IMG/VR virus record: IMGVR_UViG_3300005611_000061 | Location: 1 to 43,226 of that record | Direction: 5' to 3' (one strand) | Source of the DNA: a virus | Lineage: Duplodnaviria; Caudoviricetes | Length of the DNA: 43,226 nt | Part shown: positions 9,302 through 43,226 of the stretch, in pieces | Layout: the number at the start of each line of letters is the position of its first letter | Numbering within the stretch: position 1 is the first letter of the stretch | Made by a program: the position numbers and the translations under genes | The notes under the pieces: generated by a model | Told to the model about the DNA's origin: nothing | The model's database searches: none | What the model saw: only the letters and a program-made list of their open reading frames with translations

Positions 9302-9346
9302 AACTGTCCACCGTGATTTGGGGCTGATTGGGGCTATAGTCAAAGG
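9302..9346 (+). promoter_or_regulatory. Candidate host sigma70-type early promoter
   Basis: -10-like TATAGT at 9335-9340, preceded by AACTGTCCAC (9302-9311) and a GATT(T)GGGGCT duplication. There is no clean -35. Confidence 0.45.
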
Positions 9347-9450
9347 GAGATCTGATTTGATAGTTGAGATACTCGAACTCTCCCTGAAAGGGTGAGGAGA
9401 GTTCTCGATCTTTCAACCATCAGATCTCTACCCTCAGCACCTCGACAACT
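9347..9450 (+). promoter_or_regulatory. Long leader hairpin followed by a boxA-like sequence
   Basis: Nested pairings GAGATCTGAT/ATCAGATCTC, GTTGA/TCAAC and GAACTCTCC/GGAGAGTTC, then GCACCTCGACAACT at 9437-9450. Confidence 0.5.
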
Positions 9451-9622
9451 TGCGACTGCCGACTGCGGCGACCGTGCCCGGCGATTGGGTCACACCTTCG
9501 GTGTGGGAGACATGCTCCGCAGGCTAACAGGCAGGCTACACACACATGTGTAACATATAACCCGCGCGTGTATACACACATACATGCGCCCGCGGATCCA
9601 CACGCGTAGTATGCTCATGGAC

Positions 9623-9689
9623 ACGTACACGGTGCACCGGCGCCCTGCCCGTTCGAGTCGGGCTGTATGTATTGGGTCACATGGACCCA
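9623..9689 (+). ncRNA. Minimal tRNA-like element 1 plus 3' hairpin
   Basis: 7-bp stem ACGTACA/TGTATGT stacked on T-arm GCCCG-TTCGAGT-CGGGC, then TGGGTC/GACCCA. Confidence 0.55.
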
Positions 9690-9712
9690 CCAATCACACT
9701 CATCATTTGCTC

Positions 9713-9949
9713 ATGTACACACAGTTCACCGCACGCCGTACCTCCGACGCTTGCGACTTCATCCGTGTTAACCTGTTCTCAGGGACTGCTGAGGTATCCT
9801 TCCGCAGCGGTAGCATGTACCGGTACACCAACGTGTCCCGCCGTGCTATCCTCAATCTCATGTACAACCCCAACATGAGCCTAGGGTTCTGGGCTAACCA
9901 CAACTGCGTGCAGTCTGACCGTACCAAGTACAGTCTCGCTGCTGCCTGA
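9713..9949 (+). CDS. Early protein, KTSC-like domain
   Basis: AEVSFRSGSMYRYTNVS...SLGFWANHN resembles the KTSC pattern; internal ATG 9713 of the ORF at 9584. Confidence 0.65.
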   Translation: MYTQFTARRTSDACDFIRVNLFSGTAEVSFRSGSMYRYTNVSRRAILNLMYNPNMSLGFWANHNCVQSDRTKYSLAAA

Positions 9950-10008
9950 TCACCGCGTGATGCCGGGGGATCGAATCCCCTGGTCAGGCGTTGGCACCTT
10001 GCGTGCCA
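9944..10008 (+). ncRNA. Minimal tRNA-like element 2 plus 3' hairpin
   Basis: GCCTGATC/GGTCAGGC stem stacked on GGGGG-ATCGAAT-CCCCT, then TGGCAC/GTGCCA. Confidence 0.55.
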
Positions 10009-10034
10009 TACACTACACACACATGGACTCACAC

Positions 10035-10364
10035 ATGACCGTTGCACTGCCCGTCACCCACATCATCCTGGGCGAGGAGTTCGATACTGACGAACTCAGG
10101 GACATCGCAGAACATGGCGCCAACACTGGTGTTCATGGCTTCACGTACTCATCAGACTTGCATGACATGTTCGACAAGTACGAAGAACAAATCATGGACG
10201 ATCTCGATGAGTGGTGTGATGACAACTTCGGACAATCTGCAGGCTCATACATTGCCGAGCAGCTAACCTTTGATGACAAATCATGGACGCTGCAGCAATT
10301 CAAAGAATACGCTTGCTGGATGTATCTAGAGATGCGTGCCTGGTTCATCACAGGCGGTTACTGA
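10035..10364 (+). CDS. Acidic early protein, possible DNA mimic (Ocr-like position and charge)
   Basis: ~109 aa, strongly Asp/Glu-rich, second early gene; alternative ATG at 10023. Confidence 0.6.
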   Translation: MTVALPVTHIILGEEFDTDELRDIAEHGANTGVHGFTYSSDLHDMFDKYEEQIMDDLDEWCDDNFGQSAGSYIAEQLTFDDKSWTLQQFKEYACWMYLEMRAWFITGGY

Positions 10365-10370
10365 TCTCAT

Positions 10371-10396
10371 GGACCCTGCTTCGGCGGGGTTCTTTT
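10371..10396 (+). terminator. Intrinsic terminator in the early region
   Basis: GGACCCTGC-TTCG-GCGGGGTTC-TTTT. Confidence 0.7.
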
Positions 10397-10437
10397 GTCA
10401 CACTCATCATTCTCCGTCCGTCATGGACGCACCAACT

Positions 10438-11433: not shown

Positions 11434-13773
11434 TTGGCAACACCAGCAGAGATTGACAGGCAAGTAAAACTTGAGCGTGAACAAATAGCTCAAGGACTCA
11501 AGCAACTACGTGACAACACAGACAAGCTAGAGAGCAAGGACTACGCATCAGCCAGTGTGTATGGTGTAGCATCTATTCAACAACTCATCCCACTTGTGGT
11601 TGAGCGCATTGAGCAGACAGCTGCACGTGCAAAGCGTGGCTTTGTGGGTCAACACTTCAAAGAGATCAAAGCGTTGCTCAAGGACTTAGAGCCTGATGCA
11701 GCCGCGGCCATCACGTCAAAGGTTATCTTTGATAAAGTGTTCAGCTCCAAGCCACGTAGTGGACAGCTACAGAATGTGACTGATTCAATCGGTCAAGCTG
11801 TAGAGAACGAGTGCATGATGCGCTATTATGAGCAGCATGTGCCTGGACTTCTTCATACAATCAAAGAAAACTACTTCCACAAGTCCATAGGCACTCACCA
11901 AAAGGTCAAGGTCATCACCACCCTGATGAACCGCTACGACGTGCCTCACTGGCAGTGCTGGGGTATTGCTAACCGTGTCAAGCTGGGCGGTTGGCTGCTA
12001 GATTGTGTGTGCGAGGCATCACAATGGTTCATGCGTGAGACACGTAGGGAGGGACGCAAGACCTACAACTACGTGGTGCCGACACCTGAGTTCATTGCTA
12101 TCAAGGATCAGGTGATTGCCAGTGCTGAGATGTTCAGCCCACTGGCATGGCCAATGCTCATTGAACCTAATGACTGGACCAACGAAACACCAGGTGGGTA
12201 CTTGCTTAACGAGGTCATGCGAGGGCATGACATGGTTAGGCGTTCAGCACCCCGCCTTATACAGGGAGAAACACCAATCAAGTTTCTGAACACGATTCAG
12301 AAGGTTGCATACACCCTCAATCCATTCATTGTAGATGTCGCTGAGACACTACAAGAACGTGGTATTGAGGTAGGTAAATTTATCCCTGTTGTTGAGATAC
12401 CTCTACCACCTAAGCCAATAGATATTGCAGAGAACAAAGAATCTCGCAAGGACTACAGACGAAGGGCTGCTGAGGTATGTAACATCAACGCACAAGCGTT
12501 CATGAAGTCGTGTCGTACACGTATGACAATGAACGCAGTCAAGATATTCAAACAACATGCCAAGTTCTTTATACCTTGGTCGTTTGATTATCGTGGTCGT
12601 GCTTACCCTATCCCTGCATTCTTGACACCCCAAGATACAGACTTTGGTAAGTCACTACTTAAGTTTCATGTACAGTCGTACATGACACCTGATGCTGAAG
12701 GCTGGTTAGCCTTTCAGGTCGCTACTACGTACGGCTTGGATAAAGCTACTATGCTTGAGCGACTCGCATGGACACGTGAACACATCACACTCATCAGCAG
12801 GGTCGCAACAGACCCAGTAGGCAACCTATCAGAATGGGAGGTCGCAGATGAACCATGGCAGTTTCTGGCTGCATGTGATGAGTATTACCATTGTGTCATT
12901 AATTGTGATCGTCATTTTACAAGTCTGCCTGTAGCTACAGATGCTACTTGCAGTGGTCTTCAAATTCTTGCAGGACTTGCACGCGATGCCTCAACCGCTA
13001 AACTTGTCAATGTTTTACCATCAGACAAGCCTCAGGATGCGTACAAAGTGGTGGCTGAACAAGCTACCCCACACGTACCCGACTCAATCAAACCCTACAT
13101 GGACAGAAAAACTGTCAAACGTGTAGTGATGACCGTGCCTTACAACGCAAAACCTTATTCCAACCGTGGCTACATCCGTGAAGCACTCAAAGAAAAAGGT
13201 GTTGAGGTTGATAAGGATGATCTGACTCTTACTGTCAAGGCTGTACGTGATGCCATGGACATCATTGTCCCTGGTCCCATGGCAGTCATGACATGGATTG
13301 AGTTGGAGGTCGGTAAGGCGATTGACCGTGGTTTAACTGAGTTAACATGGACTACACCATCAGGGTTTGTCGTCACTCAACGACTGATGAAACCTGTGGT
13401 CAAAGACATTGAGCTACAGTTACTTGGCAGGTGTCACATCAAAGTAGCAACAGATGAAAGCGACAAGGTTGATAAGTCTCATCATAAGAACGCAACTGCG
13501 CCCAATCTGATCCATTCTTTAGATGCTAGCCTCCTCCACTTATCTGCACTCCGCTTCGACGCTCCGATTTCCTTCATACACGACTCGGTTTTATGTCGTG
13601 CTACTGACATGGGTGTTCTTTCATCCATTGTTCGTGAAACATACATGCACCTATTTGCGGAGCATGACTTTTTAACTGACTTTGCCCAACAAATTGGGGC
13701 AGAGACTGACCCACCGATGTGTGATACACTAGAACCATCATCGGTTATCGATTCCACCTATTTTTTCTGCTAA
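11434..13773 (+). CDS. Single-subunit T7-like RNA polymerase
   Basis: DYRGRAY, DATCSGLQ, RKTVKRVVMTVPY, APNLIHSLDAS, IHDS and C-terminal YFFC; TTG start. Confidence 0.98.
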   Translation: MATPAEIDRQVKLEREQIAQGLKQLRDNTDKLESKDYASASVYGVASIQQLIPLVVERIEQTAARAKRGFVGQHFKEIKALLKDLEPDAAAAITSKVIFDKVFSSKPRSGQLQNVTDSIGQAVENECMMRYYEQHVPGLLHTIKENYFHKSIGTHQKVKVITTLMNRYDVPHWQCWGIANRVKLGGWLLDCVCEASQWFMRETRREGRKTYNYVVPTPEFIAIKDQVIASAEMFSPLAWPMLIEPNDWTNETPGGYLLNEVMRGHDMVRRSAPRLIQGETPIKFLNTIQKVAYTLNPFIVDVAETLQERGIEVGKFIPVVEIPLPPKPIDIAENKESRKDYRRRAAEVCNINAQAFMKSCRTRMTMNAVKIFKQHAKFFIPWSFDYRGRAYPIPAFLTPQDTDFGKSLLKFHVQSYMTPDAEGWLAFQVATTYGLDKATMLERLAWTREHITLISRVATDPVGNLSEWEVADEPWQFLAACDEYYHCVINCDRHFTSLPVATDATCSGLQILAGLARDASTAKLVNVLPSDKPQDAYKVVAEQATPHVPDSIKPYMDRKTVKRVVMTVPYNAKPYSNRGYIREALKEKGVEVDKDDLTLTVKAVRDAMDIIVPGPMAVMTWIELEVGKAIDRGLTELTWTTPSGFVVTQRLMKPVVKDIELQLLGRCHIKVATDESDKVDKSHHKNATAPNLIHSLDASLLHLSALRFDAPISFIHDSVLCRATDMGVLSSIVRETYMHLFAEHDFLTDFAQQIGAETDPPMCDTLEPSSVIDSTYFFC
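12245..12270 (+). promoter_or_regulatory. Candidate phage RNAP promoter, copy 2, inside the RNAP gene
   Basis: CAGCACCCCGCCTTATACAGGGAGAA, a near-identical copy of 8025-8050. Confidence 0.45.
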
Positions 13774-16454: not shown

Positions 16455-16584
16455 TACCGACTTAGATTTGCGGCGCCCAACACCGCCCACCCCTGAAATG
16501 GTGGAGCGTGCTAAATTTGTAGACAAAACTTACCGCTGGAAAAATGCTGGTATTCGACCTGGAAAGCAACGGTCTTCTCAATGA
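16414..16584 (+). CDS. Possible small protein bridging helicase and polymerase (RRPTPPTPEMVERAKFVDKTYRW)
   Basis: 56-aa ORF read by hand; it spans the 16455-16543 gap. Confidence 0.4.
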   Translation: MKLNPISTRLPISNTDLDLRRPTPPTPEMVERAKFVDKTYRWKNAGIRPGKQRSSQ

Positions 16585-17059
16585 TGTTACCCGCATTCAC
16601 TGTCTGGTCATCTACGACTCAGAGACTGACAAAACTCTCGTATACAATGACGAGGGTGATACTGAGCCCATTACTCGCGGCGTTCAACGATTGGAGGACG
16701 CTGAAGTTATTGCCGGTCACAACATCATCGGGTATGACTTACCCTGCTTACAAAAAATCTATCCGTGGTTCCAACCGACCGCCCTGGTTATTGATACCCT
16801 TCTTCTCTCGCGGTTGTATCACACGGACATGAGAGACCTAGACATGAAGCACAAGTGGGAGAACATGCCACTGCAGCTTTACGGTCGCCACAGTCTCGAA
16901 GCGTACGGTCACAGGCTGTCTGAATACAAGGGCAGCTTTGGTAAAGACGCTGACTGGTCTGAATGGTCTCAAGAAATGCAGGACTACTGCATACAAGACG
17001 TTCAAGTTACTAAAAAATTATGCGATCACTTCCACCCCTACCTGAGTGGGTCGCGCTAG
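16544..17059 (+). CDS. DNA polymerase A, 3'-5' exonuclease part
   Basis: ExoI FDLESNG, ExoII GHNIIGYD, ExoIII YCIQDV. Confidence 0.93.
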   Translation: MLVFDLESNGLLNDVTRIHCLVIYDSETDKTLVYNDEGDTEPITRGVQRLEDAEVIAGHNIIGYDLPCLQKIYPWFQPTALVIDTLLLSRLYHTDMRDLDMKHKWENMPLQLYGRHSLEAYGHRLSEYKGSFGKDADWSEWSQEMQDYCIQDVQVTKKLCDHFHPYLSGSR

Positions 17060-18294
17060 AACATCAGGTTGCAAACATTCTTACGCAACAGGAACTTCAT
17101 GGATGGTATTTTGACGAACGCTCTGCATGGCAACTTGCATCGACTCTCAGAACCGACCTTGAAAAAACTTATCAACTACTACGCGACAGGCATCCTTTCG
17201 TTGCCGGATCATTATTTACTCCTAAACGAAATAATCGGACCCAAGGCTATGTCGAAGGCGCTCCATTCACACGCTTAAAAGATCTCAATCCCACATCACG
17301 AGACCATATATCATGGATCCTGCAAACATATCATGGCTGGAAGCCGACGGAGCTGACTCCTACTGGGAAGCCGATCATCGACGAAGTTATCTTGAAAGAG
17401 GCTGCCTCCGCTGGGATTTCGATTGCCGAGGACTTTCTGAAGTGTCTCGATATTACGAAGAAATTGGGGATGATCTCGGAAGGCACGAACGCATGGCTGA
17501 AGCTGTGTACGAATGCTAACCGAGTACACCATCACTGTTCCGTCGCAACTAACACACACCGATGTGCACACCGTAACCCTAACCTTGCCCAAGTACCCAG
17601 TGACTCAAACTTCAGACAACTCTTCCAGGCTAGTCCGGGTCAGCTTCTTGTTGGCGCTGATCTCGCTGGGATCGAGCTTCGTATGCTTGCTCATTACCTC
17701 GCACGTTATGATGCGGGTCGCTACGCTGACATCCTCCTTAACGGGGACATTCACCAAGTCAATGCCGACAAAGTTGGTATCTCCAGAAGGGCTGTCAAAA
17801 CCGTTACCTACGCCTTCCTCTATGGTGCCGGTGATGCCAAAATTGGATTGAGTTATGACTCCTCTCTCAGCCCAGCTAGAGCTAAATCCAAAGGTAAAGA
17901 AATACGTACAGCTTTTGTGGAAGCAATTGACGGGCTTGCCCAGCTTCTTGAGGCTATCAAAACAGCGTCTGAGAAGGGCTATGTTCGATCAATAGACACA
18001 CGAAAGATCAAAGTTGACAGTCCGCACAAAGCATTGAATTATCTGCTACAATCAGGTGCAGGTATCGTTGCAAAGCGGTGGATGGTCATCAATCACACAA
18101 ACACACAAGAGTTGTGCTGCTCACAGCTCGCATTTATACATGACGAATTACAATTCGAGTGCGACCCCGCCCACGCAGACGCTCTATCAGCATCCCTGGT
18201 ACAAAGCGCTGAAGCGGCTGGAGAACACTATTCACTACGCCTCCCAATCAGTGCAGAAGCAAAACAAGGGAGTGACTGGTCGGAGGTCCATTGA
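17020..18294 (+). CDS. polA: DNA polymerase A, polymerase part
   Basis: PNLAQVP, motif A DLAGIELR, motif B KTVTYAFLYG, motif C IHDE; in the -1 frame relative to the exonuclease ORF. Confidence 0.95.
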   Translation: MRSLPPLPEWVALEHQVANILTQQELHGWYFDERSAWQLASTLRTDLEKTYQLLRDRHPFVAGSLFTPKRNNRTQGYVEGAPFTRLKDLNPTSRDHISWILQTYHGWKPTELTPTGKPIIDEVILKEAASAGISIAEDFLKCLDITKKLGMISEGTNAWLKLCTNANRVHHHCSVATNTHRCAHRNPNLAQVPSDSNFRQLFQASPGQLLVGADLAGIELRMLAHYLARYDAGRYADILLNGDIHQVNADKVGISRRAVKTVTYAFLYGAGDAKIGLSYDSSLSPARAKSKGKEIRTAFVEAIDGLAQLLEAIKTASEKGYVRSIDTRKIKVDSPHKALNYLLQSGAGIVAKRWMVINHTNTQELCCSQLAFIHDELQFECDPAHADALSASLVQSAEAAGEHYSLRLPISAEAKQGSDWSEVH

Positions 18295-19849: not shown

Positions 19850-20108
19850 AGAATGGTCTGAGTTTCATGAAGCTTACCATTTAAAAGATGAGTGTGACCA
19901 ATTGAAAGAACTCGCTGACCTGGTGTATGTCTGCTTTCAGTTTGCTGCTTCACAAGAGTGGGATCTCGATGAAGCTATGCACAGAGTACATGCTTCCAAT
20001 ATGTCCAAGCTTGGTGAAGATGGTAAACCTGTCTACCGAGAGGACGGTAAGGTTCTAAAGGGACCGAACTATGCACCACCTACATTGAACGATCTAATTC
20101 TTAAATGA
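19731..20108 (+). CDS. MazG-like nucleotide pyrophosphohydrolase
   Basis: LIDEEWSEF, KELADLVYV, VHASNMSK, DGKVLKGPNY. Confidence 0.88.
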   Translation: MKMNSYIHTSLLAQAESFRSAYNLTHGPQHRTIQKSLIDEEWSEFHEAYHLKDECDQLKELADLVYVCFQFAASQEWDLDEAMHRVHASNMSKLGEDGKPVYREDGKVLKGPNYAPPTLNDLILK

Positions 20109-21481
20109 CCACCTCTTATATCTCACGCACTGGACGTGTACAATCGTGGCTCGACAACCCTGAGTCACGGCTTCCAGTATCTTGCACAGTCTTTGTAGTC
20201 GAAGATTCGATGGAAGGTCCAGAAGGCATTGAAGCCAGCTGGAGGTTTGCTAGCCATGCTCTACGCAACGGAGCTGGTGTTGCTATTCACCTATCGAAAC
20301 TGCGTCCAAAAGGTACAGTATCCAACAAAGGTGATGACCAACTTGTTGCAAGTGGTCCGGTGTCCTTTGGTAAAATCTTCTCGACCCTAAATGAAATACT
20401 TAGGCGGGGTGGCACCTATCGGAACGGTGCGATTGTGTTGCATCTTGATCTATCTCATCCTGATGCCCTTGACTTTATTACTGCTTCTCGATCCGAGTTA
20501 CCTTGGGTCAAGAGATGCATCAACATCACCCCCGACTGGTGGGAGAGGTGTACGTTTAAGAAGGAACTCCTCCACGGAATTAAATCCGGTGACATTTGGC
20601 TCAACAAAGTAAAGTATGATGCAGACAACAAACGAATCCGAGGAAATGTATGCCTCGAAGTATACCTGCCCTCACGAGGAACATGCCTCTTGCAGCATAT
20701 TAATCTCGGTGCCTGCGAGTTCGACGACATCCCAACAGCTTTTAGTGAAGGTATGTCCCAGCTGTGCGATCTCCATGGCAAAACAGGTGTTGGATCAACT
20801 GGTGAGTACCTCCCAGCTGCAACAGACCGACAAGTGGGACTTGGAGTACTTGGACTTGCAAACTTACTTCGGCGGTACGGAGTAACCTACGAGCAGTTCG
20901 GTGTTGCTTTAGAGCAATACCTGGACGGTGAAACTGTAAAGACCCCAGCCTTTGAGCTGGTAGTACAGCTTGGCTTGGGTATTGATTTGGCTGCTAGCAT
21001 TGCACAAGCTAACAACATGGTACGTGCCTTTGCCATTGCACCGACTGCATCCTGCAGCTACCGCAGTAAAGATCTGGATGGTTACACCTGTACTCCAGAG
21101 ATCGCACCTCCTATCAGCCGTACGGTTGACCGCGATAGCGATACGTTTGGTGTAAAAACATATGATTATGGCGATGTAGAAATCGCTAGTGAAGTCGGTT
21201 GGAACAATTACAAGCGTGTTGCTGATGGCATCATGCGGTTGTTCAACCGTACGGGACTTCTTCACGGGTATAGCTTCAACAGTTGGAGTGATGTCGTCAC
21301 ATATGACGAAGCCTTTATCGAAGAGTGGTTGGAATCTCCTCAGACCTCCCTTTACTACAGTTTGCAGGTCATGGGCGACACTCAAGATAAGTCTGACGTT
21401 TACGCAGCACTTCAAGAGGACGTCGATGAGTATCTTGCAGACCTACTAAATGAAGAACTCGAATGTGACTGTCAAGAATGA
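20105..21481 (+). CDS. nrdA: Ribonucleotide reductase alpha subunit (compact, no ATP cone)
   Basis: PVSCTV, GNVCLEV, CLLQHINL, IAPTASCS, SLYY and C-terminal CDC. Confidence 0.92.
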   Translation: MTTSYISRTGRVQSWLDNPESRLPVSCTVFVVEDSMEGPEGIEASWRFASHALRNGAGVAIHLSKLRPKGTVSNKGDDQLVASGPVSFGKIFSTLNEILRRGGTYRNGAIVLHLDLSHPDALDFITASRSELPWVKRCINITPDWWERCTFKKELLHGIKSGDIWLNKVKYDADNKRIRGNVCLEVYLPSRGTCLLQHINLGACEFDDIPTAFSEGMSQLCDLHGKTGVGSTGEYLPAATDRQVGLGVLGLANLLRRYGVTYEQFGVALEQYLDGETVKTPAFELVVQLGLGIDLAASIAQANNMVRAFAIAPTASCSYRSKDLDGYTCTPEIAPPISRTVDRDSDTFGVKTYDYGDVEIASEVGWNNYKRVADGIMRLFNRTGLLHGYSFNSWSDVVTYDEAFIEEWLESPQTSLYYSLQVMGDTQDKSDVYAALQEDVDEYLADLLNEELECDCQE

Positions 21482-22194
21482 ACCCTTATGAAAAACTAAT
21501 GGCGCGTAAGCGCAAGTGGACACCAGTACAAACTACAGCTGGTGTCTGCAAAGAGGGTGCGGAGGAAACAATCTTCCGTGCTCTCGCACTCCGACACATG
21601 GAACTTCCTGTCGGAGACTTTATTACTGATGCTCTAGAAAAGAATGTCCCTGCTGCGGCTCGCACGCTCCTCGAAACAAACGTCAAAGACGAAGAAAACC
21701 ACGACGTGGCTTTGGGTTACATTGCCAACTCTTACGGCACTAATTCCAAAGCTGAAAAGGAAGCACTGGCGTTGCAAAAAGCGTGGATTGAGCATCCTGA
21801 TCACACGATCACCAAAGCAATGGTTGCCGAACGTGCGATTTTCTTTGTTCTATTACCCTTCTTTCGTTTTAACGGTGATTCTGGTATGCGAACAGTCTCA
21901 GCGGACATCTCACGAGACGAACAAATCCACGTGGCGTGCAACTCTCTCGTATGCAAAGAGCTGGGGCTTGAGATCTCGCCGTCCTTGGATAAATTGAGGA
22001 AGGCTACAATCAACTGGGTCATGCAACCCCTCAAGGTTGGTGCATCCGATAAATATTTGGACAAAAAATTTTGGGTCGATTCTAGTGATCGCCTAATGTA
22101 TGAGGGCAAAGCGCCCGAACTGTCTGCCACCCGTGCAGCTCGTATGCCTGCTTTCTTTGAACATGCAAATACAAACCTCCCACAGTACGCTTAA
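21478..22194 (+). CDS. nrdB: Ribonucleotide reductase class I beta subunit (short ferritin-like)
   Basis: Dimetal motifs DEENH and DEQIH; ends in a Tyr-containing tail; coupled to the alpha subunit. Confidence 0.8.
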   Translation: MNPYEKLMARKRKWTPVQTTAGVCKEGAEETIFRALALRHMELPVGDFITDALEKNVPAAARTLLETNVKDEENHDVALGYIANSYGTNSKAEKEALALQKAWIEHPDHTITKAMVAERAIFFVLLPFFRFNGDSGMRTVSADISRDEQIHVACNSLVCKELGLEISPSLDKLRKATINWVMQPLKVGASDKYLDKKFWVDSSDRLMYEGKAPELSATRAARMPAFFEHANTNLPQYA

Positions 22195-27108: not shown

Positions 27109-27179
27109 TTCGTACGTTCATCCTTCGGGACGCATACTGCCTGACCATGGAACGGGGGTCAGGTTTACCTCAGTACGAA
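27109..27179 (+). ncRNA. Glutamine-II riboswitch (Downstream-peptide RNA motif)
   Basis: P1 CGTTC/GGAACG, P2 TCC-TTCG-GGA, pseudoknot CCTGACC/GGTCAGG; followed by a YRG peptide ORF. Confidence 0.85.
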
Positions 27180-27298: not shown

Positions 27299-27446
27299 GC
27301 ATCAATCTAAAGCTGCTAAAGCAACTCCTGTCCCGTATACCCCAGTGCCTGCTGGTGCAGAGGTAACGTTCAAACGTTGCGGACATTGCGGTGATAAGAA
27401 ACCTGAATGTCGTAAACAAAAGAAGTGTCTTAAAGACCTTCTGTAA
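27288..27446 (+). CDS. 52-aa basic peptide with four Cys (CGHC...C...C), possibly zinc-binding
   Basis: ATG 27288 overlaps the end of the YRG peptide gene. Confidence 0.6.
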   Translation: MPSKHQSKAAKATPVPYTPVPAGAEVTFKRCGHCGDKKPECRKQKKCLKDLL

Positions 27447-27453
27447 ACAGCTT

Positions 27454-27574
27454 GGGAGGCACCTCAGAGTCGGACCTCCCTTGCATTGGTTGGAGCCGGT
27501 ACGCCGATACCTCTGACCGTCTAGACGGTGGGATAGACCACAACATTTTTAACAAAAAATTTCCAAACGTTTGG
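27454..27574 (+). promoter_or_regulatory. Structured leader / control region upstream of the capsid gene
   Basis: GGGAGG/CCTCCC hairpin, CGG-TACG-CCG hairpin, and palindromes ACCGTCTAGACGGT and CCAAACGTTTGG. Confidence 0.5.
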
Positions 27575-40298: not shown

Positions 40299-43226
40299 AT
40301 GGCTACAACTGAAGTATTTTACAACGGTGACGGATCTGACGTCACCTTTACAATTCCATTTGAATATTTAGAGGAATCCGACGTCAAAGTTTCTGTCGGA
40401 GGCACCTTACAAACTCAAGACACTGATTACACGTTTTCAACTCTAACTGAGATTACGTTTACTACTGCACCTCCAACTGGTACAGATAATGTAAGGATTT
40501 TTAGAGATACGGACATCAACACCCTGCGGAACGAGTTTTTCGCAGGTTCTGCCATCCGTGCACAAGACCTAAACGATGACTTCCTGCAAACCCTTTACAC
40601 GGTGCAGGAGATTAGTAATTACACCTGGGATAACGAAACAAATACAATCCATAGTGACGAAACGTGGGTAAGCTCTGATACTCAGATTGCTACCACCGCT
40701 GCTATGGATCAGCGGTTCCAAGACGAAGCAACTGAAACTATTGAAAGTACAGAGACGTGGGTTAGCGATGATGATCGTGTACCCACTACACTTGCTTCTG
40801 ACAACCGAGTAGATAGTAAGATTGATACTGCTATTGAAGGGGACATCCTCATTGATAGTACCGGTCTTACTAAGTCTGCTGCTGGTGGTCAGGTAACCAT
40901 TGGCATTGGTGCTAACTCTGTTGACCTTGACCGTATCAAAAATGAAGATATTGTCACGTATGCTGAGCAGAATGCTGGGTCTCCTTCTTGGGATAGTGAT
41001 AGTCGCATCCCTACGACTTATGCTGCTGCTAAGCGATTTGACACCCTTGTGCAGATCGCTACACCCACAGGAACCGACTGGGAAGTAGGTAAGACGTGGC
41101 TGCAAAATGACGTAGACAAAACCCTTTCTATTTGGAACGGCAGTGCTTGGGTAGCTGTTGCTTCTGGTGGTGCCTTTACTGAGCTTACTAAGGTTATCTA
41201 CGTTGACTCTGTTAATGGTGATGACACCTTGGCTGGTCACCGTATTAGTAACCCTAAGCGTACCATTAAAGCAGCTATTGATGACATTAACGCTGATCCT
41301 GATGGTGACGGCAGTATTGTATTGGTTGCACCGGGTATTTACGGTGAGACGTTCCCAATCTCGATTCATAAAAATGATGTCGCTATTGTTGGTCAGTCCC
41401 TAAGAAACTGCATCGTTCACCCTGCTATCCCTGCTGCTGATCAGGCTGGATATAGCGTAGATGTGCCAGAGGCTAACGAACTGTCTACCATGTTCGAAGT
41501 CAATAGCGGTACATATATCTATGGCTTGACCTTGACTGGTATGAAGGCTAGCGGTACTCGTGGCGGTAACAGCCTTGATACTGACTCTACCTACGGTCTT
41601 CCTACTAACCAAGGTTGGAACTTTGCGTTCCGTTCTGGTGCAACAATTAAGAAGTCTCCGTACATCCAAAACTGTACTAACTTCTCTGATAGCCAGATCA
41701 ACAACGTAACCTTTATACCGCATACGCCTGGTGAAGGCGCTGCTGGTGACCTTGATTCTGCTCCGTCTGGTGGTGGTATTCTTATCGATGGTTCTACTGT
41801 TGATTCGTCTAGCCCACTGCGGTCGATGGTGTGTGATAGTTACACCCATACTGCACTTGATGGTCCTGGTATCTTTGTTACCAACAACGGTTACTGTCAG
41901 GCAACTAGCTCCTATTCATTCTTTAACCACTTCCATCTAAAGACAAAGAATGGTGGTCAAGCTAACCTCGCTGCTTCTACTACTGACTTTGGTAGTCATT
42001 CATTGATTGCTGACGGACGTTCTCCGTACGCTATCTTTACTGCTACTACAACTGTAACTGCAAGCGACGGTAGTGCTACGTTTACTATCGGTACACCAAC
42101 CGCACGTACTGCAACACCTCTGCCTTGGCATGGTAACGCAACACGTCCCCAGGACAACATGCTTGTGGACATCGGCGGTAACACCTACCCAATCCTTAGT
42201 GCTGTTGCTAATGGCGCTGGATGGGATGTAACAATCAGCCGTCCTGATCCTAATGACCGTAACAGTAACCTTGGTCTTGACGGTACTGTAAATAGCGGTT
42301 CTGCTGTCAGTTTCTTCCTTCGTTCAATGATCGCCTCTAGCGGTCACACGATGGAGTACGTTGGCAGTGGTACTGATTATACTGCACTGCCTGAGAACGG
42401 TGGTGTACCTGATGACACCAAACAACTTACCGAACTAAACAACGGTAAGATCTGGGCTGCTATTACGGATCACCGTGGTACGTTCAAGGTTGGTGATACG
42501 TTTGAAGTTAATCAGCAAACTGGTTTTGTTGACATTGATGCAGCAGCTAGTAATGCTGTAACTAAGACAGCACAGACTGGTTCTGCCATCATTCCTCTTG
42601 GTACAGACGCTCAACGTGACGGTTCACCTAATAATGGTTACTTCCGTTACAACACTACTCGTGATGAGTTTGAAGGTTATGTCGGTGGTGCCTGGAGCAA
42701 AATTGATGGTGTGATTGATGGTGATAAGGGCGACATTACTGTGTCTAGTAATGGCGGTACTTGGACTATCGATAACGACACAATCACTAACGCTAAAATG
42801 GCAGATGATGCCATTGGTATTGCTGAACTGTCGGCAACTGGTACACCGGGTTCTGGTAACTTCCTGCGTGGTGATAACACTTGGGCAGCAGCTTCTGCTG
42901 ATCTAGTTTCAGATACTACACCACAACTTGGTGGGATGTTGGATGTTAATGGTCAGTCTATCGGTGATGGCACACTTGAGCTTCTTAAGTTTTCCGAAAC
43001 AGCTTCTGCTGTTAACGAGCTGACGGTTACTAATGCTGCCACTGGTAACGGTCCAACACTTTCAGCTACTGGTGATGATACCAACGTTAATTTAGACCTG
43101 ACTGCTAAAGGCACTGGTCTTATCCAAGTAACTGAAAATGGGCTATCTAAAGTACCTATTGTCACTCAACACGACATTGGTACTGCTGCTAATGAGATCC
43201 CATTGAACCAGTATCTCGGTACTGCT
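40299..43226 (+). CDS. Tail fibre / tailspike (gp17-like), partial, runs off the window; not in the ORF track
   Basis: MATTEVFYNGDGSDVTFTIPFEYL...VRIFRDTD is a T7 fibre adaptor N-terminus. A beta-helix-type start (IYVDSVNGDD...TIKAAI...VAPGIYGE) follows. The frame was open at every spot check through the last base. Confidence 0.9.
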   Translation, partial: MATTEVFYNGDGSDVTFTIPFEYLEESDVKVSVGGTLQTQDTDYTFSTLTEITFTTAPPTGTDNVRIFRDTDINTLRNEFFAGSAIRAQDLNDDFLQTLYTVQEISNYTWDNETNTIHSDETWVSSDTQIATTAAMDQRFQDEATETIESTETWVSDDDRVPTTLASDNRVDSKIDTAIEGDILIDSTGLTKSAAGGQVTIGIGANSVDLDRIKNEDIVTYAEQNAGSPSWDSDSRIPTTYAAAKRFDTLVQIATPTGTDWEVGKTWLQNDVDKTLSIWNGSAWVAVASGGAFTELTKVIYVDSVNGDDTLAGHRISNPKRTIKAAIDDINADPDGDGSIVLVAPGIYGETFPISIHKNDVAIVGQSLRNCIVHPAIPAADQAGYSVDVPEANELSTMFEVNSGTYIYGLTLTGMKASGTRGGNSLDTDSTYGLPTNQGWNFAFRSGATIKKSPYIQNCTNFSDSQINNVTFIPHTPGEGAAGDLDSAPSGGGILIDGSTVDSSSPLRSMVCDSYTHTALDGPGIFVTNNGYCQATSSYSFFNHFHLKTKNGGQANLAASTTDFGSHSLIADGRSPYAIFTATTTVTASDGSATFTIGTPTARTATPLPWHGNATRPQDNMLVDIGGNTYPILSAVANGAGWDVTISRPDPNDRNSNLGLDGTVNSGSAVSFFLRSMIASSGHTMEYVGSGTDYTALPENGGVPDDTKQLTELNNGKIWAAITDHRGTFKVGDTFEVNQQTGFVDIDAAASNAVTKTAQTGSAIIPLGTDAQRDGSPNNGYFRYNTTRDEFEGYVGGAWSKIDGVIDGDKGDITVSSNGGTWTIDNDTITNAKMADDAIGIAELSATGTPGSGNFLRGDNTWAAASADLVSDTTPQLGGMLDVNGQSIGDGTLELLKFSETASAVNELTVTNAATGNGPTLSATGDDTNVNLDLTAKGTGLIQVTENGLSKVPIVTQHDIGTAANEIPLNQYLGTA

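What the first reader, a model, noticed from the sequence alone, without database searches (positions are those of the whole stretch)
9623..10008. Two minimal tRNA-like elements with shared architecture punctuate the early transcript
Seen: element 1 (9623-9670) has a 7-bp acceptor-like stem stacked directly on a 5-bp stem with the 7-nt loop TTCGAGT. Element 2 (9944-9989) has a 7-8-bp stem stacked on a 5-bp stem with loop ATCGAAT. Both have only a short linker where the D and anticodon arms would be, and neither has CCA. Each is followed after exactly 2 nt by a 6-bp hairpin with a 5-nt loop, then a C/A-rich spacer and an early gene. The primary sequences differ while the geometry is kept. Established: RNase P and RNase Z recognise the acceptor/T-arm stack, and T7 cuts its early mRNA with RNase III hairpins. 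Inference: tRNA-mimic punctuation that processes or stabilises early mRNAs, or releases small decoy RNAs, for example against anticodon nucleases.
Basis: partly seen in the sequence, partly recalled or inferred. Interest (0 to 1): 0.8.

Follow-up and report, generated by a model that had tools for sequence, protein, structure and literature searches.

The report
Anticodon-less mini-tRNAs punctuating cyanophage transcripts
Between the first genes of this virus of marine cyanobacteria sit two ~47-base RNA elements that copy the top half of a tRNA but have no anticodon arm, belong to a family conserved across many cyanophages, and likely let the host's tRNA-trimming enzymes cut the long viral message into separately stabilised pieces, though no cut has been shown.

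Summary
Real and conserved. The window is a T7-like cyanophage. A generic tRNA-top-half descriptor finds exactly these two sites in 43 kb (0.125 expected). In element 1's family its loop co-varies with the T-loop as in the tRNA elbow: 111 of 111 viral matches are G19-C56 or A19-U56, none mixed. Element 2 is a deviant 13-bp subclass whose elbow is not shown. Family members occur in Syn5, S-TIP37, S-SBP1, P-SSP7, P-SSP10 and the RNA-polymerase-less S-EIVl group, and also before capsid genes. The same gene junction can instead hold a complete CCA-less tRNA-Asp or an unrelated hairpin family. Nearly all have U74, no CCA and a hairpin 0-2 nt further on. The upstream stop codon often lies inside the element. 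Best reading (0.65): host RNase Z, probably with RNase P, cuts here and frees hairpin-capped mRNAs, like plant mitochondrial t-elements. No cleavage or RNA end was shown. A decoy for anticodon nucleases is unlikely. Not in Rfam, not in 10 paper searches. This scan noted the family twice before on other genomes.

The parts
9335..9340 (+). Candidate host sigma-70-type -10 hexamer (TATAGT) ahead of the early region
   Evidence: TANNNT hexamer at this place in 55 of 61 unique relatives; not found by the strict two-box scan; promoter function inferred
9350..9428 (+). Long conserved hairpin at the likely 5' end of the early transcript
   Evidence: Fold z -3.2; core seen in L001-L005; role not tested
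9612..9620 (+). Conserved motif just 5' of element 1 (second promoter box or RNA element; unresolved)
   Evidence: Used as anchor for 49 unique relatives; not enriched elsewhere in the window
9623..9671 (+). Mini-tRNA element 1: 7-bp acceptor-like stem, D-like hairpin, 5-bp T-arm, discriminator A9671, no anticodon arm, no CCA
   Evidence: covariation in 27 relatives
9631..9644 (+). D-like hairpin, 4 bp with 6-nt loop; G9639 and G9640 are the equivalents of G18 and G19, G9640 predicted to pair with C9654 (C56)
   Evidence: 3 of 4 pairs with two-sided changes; tertiary pair G-C 9, A-U 18 of 27; 111 of 111 viral matches
9673..9689 (+). 6-bp hairpin, predicted 5' cap of the downstream mRNA after a cut behind A9671
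   Evidence: hairpin within 2 nt of position 73 in 125 of 160 elements against 25% of control sites
9713..9949 (+). Early gene, KTSC-like (weak Pfam match, below cut-off); its stop codon lies inside element 2
   Evidence: PF13619 E 4e-4, 20.5 bits against cut-off 25; conserved family
9944..9990 (+). Mini-tRNA element 2, deviant subclass: 13-bp stack, ATCGAAT loop, small GNRA-like hairpin next to the T-stem, discriminator G9990; holds TGA 9947-9949 at +4 to +6
   Evidence: 9-member alignment read by eye; weak match to model R1, E 0.14
9992..10008 (+). 6-bp hairpin, predicted 5' cap of the next mRNA
   Evidence: conserved position in relatives
10023..10364 (+). Early gene, DUF7222
   Evidence: PF23864 E 1.4e-13
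10371..10400 (+). Terminator-like hairpin with T-run at the third junction, where relatives carry a third mini-tRNA, a tRNA or a type-B hairpin
27442..27487 (+). Variant element at the pre-capsid junction: same T-stem and same downstream hairpin as the S-SBP1 mini-tRNA, but a 15-nt loop in place of the T-loop; holds the stop codon 27444-27446
   Evidence: Read by eye; membership not established

Best explanation
These are anticodon-less tRNA mimics (an acceptor/T-arm stack of 12-13 pairs plus a D-like hairpin that in element 1's family is predicted to close the tRNA elbow), and they likely act as cutting signals at which host RNase Z, probably after RNase P, divides the phage's polycistronic RNA. 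Shown: the fold, its covariation, the elbow covariation in element 1's family, the fixed stack length, U74 with no CCA, the hairpin that follows, and the interchange with real tRNA genes and with an unrelated hairpin family. Inferred: RNase Z would cut behind the discriminator (after 9671 and 9990), so that the next mRNA starts with 1-3 free bases and a hairpin that would shield it from RNase J and RNase E. Inferred with less confidence: RNase P would cut at 9622/9623 and 9943/9944, release a ~47-nt RNA, and at element 2 remove the stop codon from the KTSC-like mRNA. In effect the phage would use tRNA enzymes where T7 uses RNase III.
For: Helix covariation on alignments chosen by sequence motif, not by pairing: 99.3% of 432 cells paired, 11 of 16 pairs with two-sided changes, slid controls 31-39%; second subfamily 93.2% of 370 cells; RNAalifold finds the same fold. 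Elbow: with both positions left free in the pattern, viral hits are 60 G/C and 51 A/U of 111, none mixed, while chance hits in cellular genomes are 61/24/18/17 of 120 and 0 of 120 fold. Position 18 follows position 55: G with U in 49 of 49, A with G in 33 of 33, in line with adenosine intercalating into UGNRA T-loops (bioRxiv 2022.12.26.521914, passages). Ruler: with no length imposed, stacks of 12 bp number 35 of 181 T-loop hairpins on the sense strand against 1 of 94 on the other, split 5+7, 6+6 or 7+5. RNase P, RNase Z and the CCA enzyme all measure from the elbow (PMC4810234, passages). U at 74 in 141 of 160, CCA in 0 of 160; cytidines there inhibit RNase Z, and D and anticodon arms are dispensable for its binding (PMC7479834, passages). 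After the KTSC-like gene, 99 unique junctions hold 29 minis, 2 complete tRNA-Asp genes, 41 type-B hairpins and 27 others (tRNAs). Type B also yields a downstream hairpin from its 3' strand in 39 of 41 (control 24%). Cyanobacteria have RNase P, RNase Z and RNase J (PMC10989914, passages). Precedent, including mRNA ends upstream of the stop codon: plant t-elements (PMC1920247, passages).
Against: No RNA end, cleavage or even transcription was shown: the 7 runs found are contigs, mostly of doubtful RNA status. RNase Z usually needs a mature 5' end, yet an RNase P cut would strip the upstream stop codon in 18 of 29 and 6 of 12 junctions, a cost that is unexplained. G at +1 is only 76 of 160. Element 2 has 13 pairs, A at 54 and no evident 18/19 partner, and model R1 finds it only at E 0.14 and misses element 1. 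13 of 22 members of one subfamily have a mismatch at the helix junction. The elements are absent from the loci examined of S-CBP1, S-RIP1, S-TIP28 and 7B11-B. The 18/55 covariation separates two classes and may be one event, and some of the 33 rows came from a pattern that fixed those letters. That type B is an RNase III site is my inference only.
Confidence: 0.65

Rival explanations
1. The element is not cut. It is a compact fold that blocks exonucleases (RNase J from the 5' side, PNPase or RNase II/R from the 3' side) or binds a tRNA-elbow reader such as the ribosome, and so sets mRNA stability or translation.
For: The elbow is read by many proteins and RNAs besides nucleases. Stop codons inside the element would then cost nothing. 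A terminator-like hairpin fills the third junction in this window.
Against: A barrier does not need a fixed 12-bp ruler, U74, absence of CCA or a second hairpin 0-2 nt after position 73. Real CCA-less tRNA genes fill the same junction with the same trailing hairpin, and those must be cut out.
Confidence: 0.17
2. The purpose is the released ~47-nt RNA, which would receive CCA and act as a decoy for defence toxins or tRNA enzymes that read the acceptor end or the elbow; splitting of the mRNA is a by-product.
For: Several copies at the very start of the genome, up to 4 in a row in L550. Elbow kept under tight selection. A flanking KTSC-like protein might bind RNA (recalled, not tested).
Against: No anticodon arm, so anticodon nucleases have nothing to bind. 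No conserved acceptor identity (A6: all 5 acceptor pairs change). Unrelated type-B hairpins replace it at 41 of 99 junctions. It also stands before capsid genes.
Confidence: 0.12
3. Decayed tRNA genes or integration (attP) remnants without present function, or DNA hairpins.
For: Real tRNA-Asp genes occupy the same junctions in some relatives. Several relatives carry integrases.
Against: Two-sided covariation in all helices, kept G-U pairs, and 148 against 2 hits by strand. Both acceptor strands change together, which an attP copy of a tRNA 3' half does not need.
Confidence: 0.03

Closest known systems
Plant mitochondrial t-elements (Forner et al. 2007, PMC1920247; passages read)
   Same: tRNA-like folds inside long precursors whose ends coincide with mRNA ends; RNase Z proposed to make the 5' end of the next mRNA and RNase P the 3' end of the previous one; ccmC and nad6 mRNAs end 46 and 17 bases before the stop codon; tRNAs, t-elements and simple stems are interchangeable as signals.
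   Different: Organelle, not phage; about 74 nt cloverleaf-like, not ~47 nt; no described G18/U55 to A18/G55 class, no sliding 5+7/6+6/7+5 split, no fixed trailing hairpin; their ends are mapped, ours are not.
mascRNA and menRNA (PMC11693755; passages read)
   Same: Small tRNA mimic with reduced D stem-loop, two guanines forming the elbow with the T-loop, processed by RNase P then RNase Z, not aminoacylated.
   Different: They keep an anticodon-equivalent stem, sit at the 3' end of a nuclear lncRNA, and occur once per transcript; ours have no such stem and recur between protein genes.
Phage RNase P substrates: P1/P7 C4 antisense RNA precursor, M3 RNA, T4 tRNA-like species (named in PMC11143913; passages and reference titles)
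   Same: Phage RNAs other than tRNA that are matured by host RNase P.
   Different: There the small RNA is the product; nothing read describes repeated elbow mimics between phage genes.
T7 early-region RNase III sites (recalled, not read)
   Same: Same logic and position: structured signals between early genes of a host-transcribed polycistronic RNA.
   Different: Long irregular hairpins cut by RNase III; here tRNA geometry. The type-B family may be the RNase III equivalent (untested).
Bacterial Y RNA YrlA (PMC4201824; passages read)
   Same: Mimics D arm, T arm and acceptor stem; one member is cut by RNase P and gains CCA; found in phages too.
   Different: Encoded beside Ro60 and joined to a Ro-binding module; the genes beside our elements are KTSC-like and DUF7222.

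Membership tests
tRNA (RF00005) | Acceptor stem stacked on T-arm, 12 bp | tested here: met
   Element 1 is 7+5; element 2 is 13 bp; family mode 12
tRNA (RF00005) | Anticodon arm | tested here: not met
   Absent; ARAGORN and Rfam give no hit
tRNA (RF00005) | D-loop/T-loop elbow (18-55, 19-56), element 1 family | tested here: met
   By covariation only:
tRNA (RF00005) | D-loop/T-loop elbow, element 2 subclass | tested here: inconclusive
   9 members, GNRA-like hairpin abutting the T-stem, no varying partner for position 56
t-element type processing signal | tRNA-like fold with T-arm placed at gene junctions of a polycistronic RNA | tested here: met
t-element type processing signal | Element ends coincide with mapped mRNA ends | not testable with these tools
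   Only contigs available
t-element type processing signal | Cleavage by RNase P and/or RNase Z | not testable with these tools
   Sequence features fit; no assay
mascRNA/menRNA | Anticodon-equivalent stem and position at the 3' end of a nuclear lncRNA | tested here: not met
   Three-way junction only; between phage protein genes
Bacterial Y RNA (YrlA) | Encoded next to a Ro60 gene | tested here: not met
   Flanking genes are KTSC-like and DUF7222; no such match among 24 window proteins scanned, which is not all of them
tmRNA tRNA-like domain | Part of a tmRNA gene with tag frame | tested here: not met
   ARAGORN and Rfam find none
Any Rfam 15 family | Score at gathering threshold | tested here: not met
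   Window and 20 related loci; nothing on the elements at E up to 10

The most novel reading that the evidence does not exclude
Cyanophages run a modular tRNA-punctuation code with a built-in off switch. Each junction carries an exchangeable cutter cassette (mini-tRNA, real tRNA or type-B hairpin). Where the stop codon sits at +4 to +8 of the mimic, ribosomes finishing the upstream gene melt the acceptor stem and delay cutting; once RNase P cuts, the upstream mRNA becomes non-stop and is destroyed through tmRNA, while RNase Z frees a hairpin-capped mRNA for the next gene. One ~47-nt element would then time gene shut-off, couple it to translation, and be the smallest natural elbow-bearing substrate of both enzymes.
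Probability: 0.25. Interest if true: 0.88.

Novelty: new variant of a known kind. Interest (0 to 1): 0.72.

Why it matters
tRNA punctuation of messenger RNA is known from mitochondria and from MALAT1-type RNAs. Here the same device appears, in a smaller form, across T7-like cyanophages of Synechococcus and Prochlorococcus and in an unrelated S-EIVl-like group, including laboratory models (Syn5, P-SSP7, S-TIP37, S-SBP1), and neither Rfam nor ARAGORN sees it. If the cuts are confirmed, it explains how abundant marine phages process their RNA, gives natural minimal substrates for RNase P and RNase Z with alternative elbow pairs (A19-U56, A18-G55), and offers a ~47-base portable cutter for cyanobacterial expression. 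The predicted ends are exact to the base, so the test is direct.

Tried and rejected
Rfam at gathering score (window; 20 loci) and at E up to 10, and ARAGORN: no hit on the elements. Sequencing runs for the S-TIP37 early region: 7 runs, all contigs; 4 laid, patchy cover, nothing on ends, strand or level. Two-box promoter scan found no + strand promoter. The motifs at 9612 and 9439 are not repeated beyond chance in the window, so no support for a phage-polymerase promoter. Cellular genomes: 120 matches at about chance level, 0 fold; the scan covered 47 of 64 parts. A tree of 54 KTSC-like proteins needs 15 changes of the 19-56 label (10 forced), but identical proteins carry both labels, so this reflects module exchange and is not a count of independent mutations; element backgrounds only 2-4 letters apart do carry both forms. 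Model R1 covers only the UGC-loop class. My first junction classifier miscalled three minis as full tRNAs and missed others; one search replaces it. The 160-element set includes some chance hits with odd loops and under-calls the element-1 class (40 called). Considered by eye and dropped: twister-sister, hammerhead and other ribozymes (no Rfam hit), permuted tmRNA, attP. Papers: 10 searches listed nothing that describes these elements. The S-SBP1 transcriptome paper has no passage on non-coding RNA, promoters or intergenic regions. In Fremin et al. 2023 the two alignment archives and three large files could not be read; the tables gave no hit for my motifs or contig ids but list Synechococcus 38 times, so the family may be among their unnamed candidates. 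Lindell et al. 2007 on P-SSP7 non-coding RNAs is recalled only and was not available to check.

Full report
Setting. The window is a circularly permuted T7-like cyanophage genome: T7-type RNA polymerase at 11434-13773, primase/helicase, capsid, terminase and psbA, with closest cultured relatives among Synechococcus podoviruses (RNA polymerase 84-85% identical to S-SBP1 and S-RIP2). The finding lies at the start of the early region, about 290 bases after a candidate -10 hexamer at 9335-9340 that has a TANNNT counterpart in 55 of 61 unique relatives. The gene between the two elements (9713-9949) is KTSC-like below Pfam's cut-off, and the next (10023-10364) is DUF7222.

The observation. A descriptor for a tRNA top half finds these two sites and no other on either strand of 43 kb, against 0.125 in shuffles (written after seeing them). 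Two corrections. The linker is not unstructured: in element 1 it is a 4-bp hairpin with a 6-nt loop ending in GG. And element 2 has 13 stacked pairs and contains the stop codon of the KTSC-like gene at its positions +4 to +6.

The family. I collected loci by RNA polymerase, KTSC-like and DUF7222 relatives and from five annotated phages. In these 248 redundant sequences the descriptor gave 148 hits on the sense strand and 2 on the other, 50 unique, a few of them probably chance. With no length imposed, the stack measured 12 pairs in 35 of 181 sense-strand T-loop hairpins and 1 of 94 antisense ones, and 13 pairs in 10 against 2; the sense set includes a few true tRNAs. The split between acceptor and T stem slides (7+5, 6+6, 5+7) while the sum holds. 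For element 1, 88 of 172 loci with the KTSC-like gene had the two anchor motifs, giving 49 unique sequences, which I split by eye into two subfamilies and aligned without a structure. In the window's subfamily (27 sequences) 99.3% of 432 cells pair and 11 of 16 pairs show two-sided changes; slid controls pair 31-39% (I left out one acceptor pair that shifts with a bulge). RNAalifold predicts the same fold. The second subfamily (22) pairs at 93.2% of 370 cells, with a junction mismatch in 13. A third class with a UGC T-loop (33 sequences, chosen on structure, so partly circular) pairs at 97.2%.

The elbow. In tRNA, residue 19 pairs with 56 and residue 18 slots into the T-loop (PMC4810234, passages). 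A pattern that left the last D-like loop base (G or A) and T-loop base 56 (C or T) free matched 111 viral stretches (81 unique): 60 G/C, 51 A/T, none mixed; 104 of 111 form all three helices, and 64 of 64 with enough DNA have the KTSC-like gene downstream. The same pattern's 120 chance matches in cellular genomes show all four combinations and none folds. Position 18 is G in all 49 elements with U55 and A in all 33 with G55, which fits the rule that UGNRA T-loops take an intercalating adenosine (bioRxiv 2022.12.26.521914, passages). How many independent switches this represents is unknown. Element 2 belongs to a small subclass (9 aligned) in which the stack co-varies by eye but no elbow partner is evident.

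Spread. Descriptor or model R1 (E-values rough) find members in S-TIP37, S-SBP1, S-RIP2, Syn5, S-CBP2 and P-SSP10, larger T-loop forms in P-SSP7 and P-SSP2, and none in the loci examined of S-CBP1, S-RIP1, S-TIP28 or 7B11-B. A second pattern scan led to 46-81 kb phages with no T7-type polymerase match (0 of 5, with no positive control ringing) that share sequence with Synechococcus phage S-EIVl. These carry 2-4 copies each; L550 has four in a row, each holding the upstream TGA and each followed by a near-identical hairpin, leader and start codon. Whole-genome searches also place members before the major capsid gene of S-SBP1, P-SSP7 and, weakly, Syn5, and at one further site in P-SSP2 whose neighbours I did not look up. 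In this window that junction keeps the same T-stem and trailing hairpin with a different loop.

What the junctions hold. After the KTSC-like gene, 99 unique junctions hold 29 minis, 2 complete tRNA genes, 41 'type B' hairpins and 27 others; after DUF7222, 85 hold 12, 1, 20 and 52. The tRNAs are CCA-less tRNA-Asp(GTC), followed after 2-3 bases by a hairpin like the minis. Type B is a stem with a small internal loop whose 3' strand can switch into a downstream hairpin in 39 of 41 and 18 of 20 cases (controls 24% and 31%). Three unrelated structures thus end in the same product, an mRNA 5' end with a hairpin, if each is cut on its 3' side. Among 160 unique elements (some chance hits included), position 74 is U in 141, CCA never occurs, and a hairpin starts within 2 bases of position 73 in 125 against 25% of control sites; +1 is G in only 76. 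The upstream stop codon overlaps the element in 18 of 29 and 6 of 12 orthologous junctions, and in 71 of 90 elements with an assignable frame, 28 of them at +4.

Mechanism. Shown: fold, elbow covariation, ruler, 3' signature, interchange. From established knowledge: RNase P and RNase Z read the elbow and measure the stack; RNase Z cuts behind the discriminator, is blocked by cytidines there, does not need D or anticodon arms and mostly wants a mature 5' end; cyanobacteria have both enzymes and the 5' exonuclease RNase J. Inferred: RNase Z cuts after 9671 and 9990 and frees hairpin-capped mRNAs; RNase P probably cuts first at +1. That a 5' hairpin protects mRNA is recalled, not read. The awkward point is the stop codon inside the element. 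Plant t-elements give a precedent, with ccmC and nad6 mRNAs ending before their stop codons, but in a bacterium this would make non-stop mRNA. Either only the 3' cut matters, or the loss is a timer (novel case). I put processing at 0.65, an uncut barrier or binding element at 0.17, released decoys at 0.12 and non-functional remnants at 0.03. No RNA data bear on this.

Known and new. It works like a t-element or mascRNA but fails membership of tRNA, mascRNA, Y RNA and tmRNA, and its t-element defining test (mapped ends) could not be run. Rfam and ARAGORN miss it, and 10 paper searches found no description; it may be among the unnamed candidates of Fremin et al. 2023, whose alignments I could not read. 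All papers were seen as search listings or passages only. Two earlier notes of this scan describe top-half tRNA elements in other cyanophage genomes with the same proposed function; they are AI notes, not support. One gave me the t-element paper, which I then read in passages. Verdict: real, new variant of a known kind, interest 0.72.

Noticed in passing
L004 4283-4330, L005 2052-2110, L550 about 2636-2690 and 61 junctions: Type-B element: 6-7 bp lower stem, small pyrimidine internal loop, upper hairpin, and a competing downstream hairpin. Not in Rfam. Possibly an RNase III or Mini-III site; a second uncatalogued family.
   Followed up: partly
window 27442-27520: Pre-capsid junction: T-stem and trailing hairpin as in the S-SBP1 mini-tRNA, but a 15-nt loop replaces the T-loop; upstream stop codon inside. 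Perhaps a further cassette type.
   Followed up: partly
window 27112-27164: Glutamine-II riboswitch directly after psbA and ahead of a tiny ORF (Rfam); also in L175.
   Followed up: no
window 9347-9620: Conserved long hairpin, then a conserved motif at 9439-9449 that may pair, imperfectly, with the motif at 9612-9620 and enclose a variable ~170-nt structured domain.
   Followed up: partly
window 9713-9949 and relatives: The KTSC-like protein ends in LAAA and several DUF7222 relatives end in AA or LAA, like protease degradation tags (recalled); may also just reflect the GC-rich acceptor strand.
   Followed up: no
L583 (P-SSP7) about 709-966: Unannotated KTSC-like reading frame flanked by two ~70-nt T-loop elements (580-649, 975-1044) with a long middle arm.
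   Followed up: partly
L227 1375-1446, L245 1591-1662, L246 2663-2736, L075 2945-3018, L042 about 1460-1530: Complete CCA-less tRNA genes in the early region of T7-like cyanophages, each followed by a hairpin; L227 also has a 39-nt mini with only an 8-nt linker (993-1031).
   Followed up: partly
L493, L502, L520, L571 near position 1500: tRNA-sized elements with a UGCAA T-loop in other viruses; ARAGORN calls a tRNA in two of the four loci.
   Followed up: no
L196 and L197, about 170 nt upstream of the KTSC-like gene: Longer form at element 1's position, with extra arms between acceptor and T-arm.
   Followed up: no
window 40569-41369 and 41400-41849, minus strand: Two long reading frames against the genome's direction with no Pfam match.
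   Followed up: no
window 16544-17059 and 17020-18294; 20105-21481 and 21478-22194: DNA polymerase and ribonucleotide reductase regions appear as two overlapping frames each; the polymerase split is annotated likewise in relatives.
   Followed up: no
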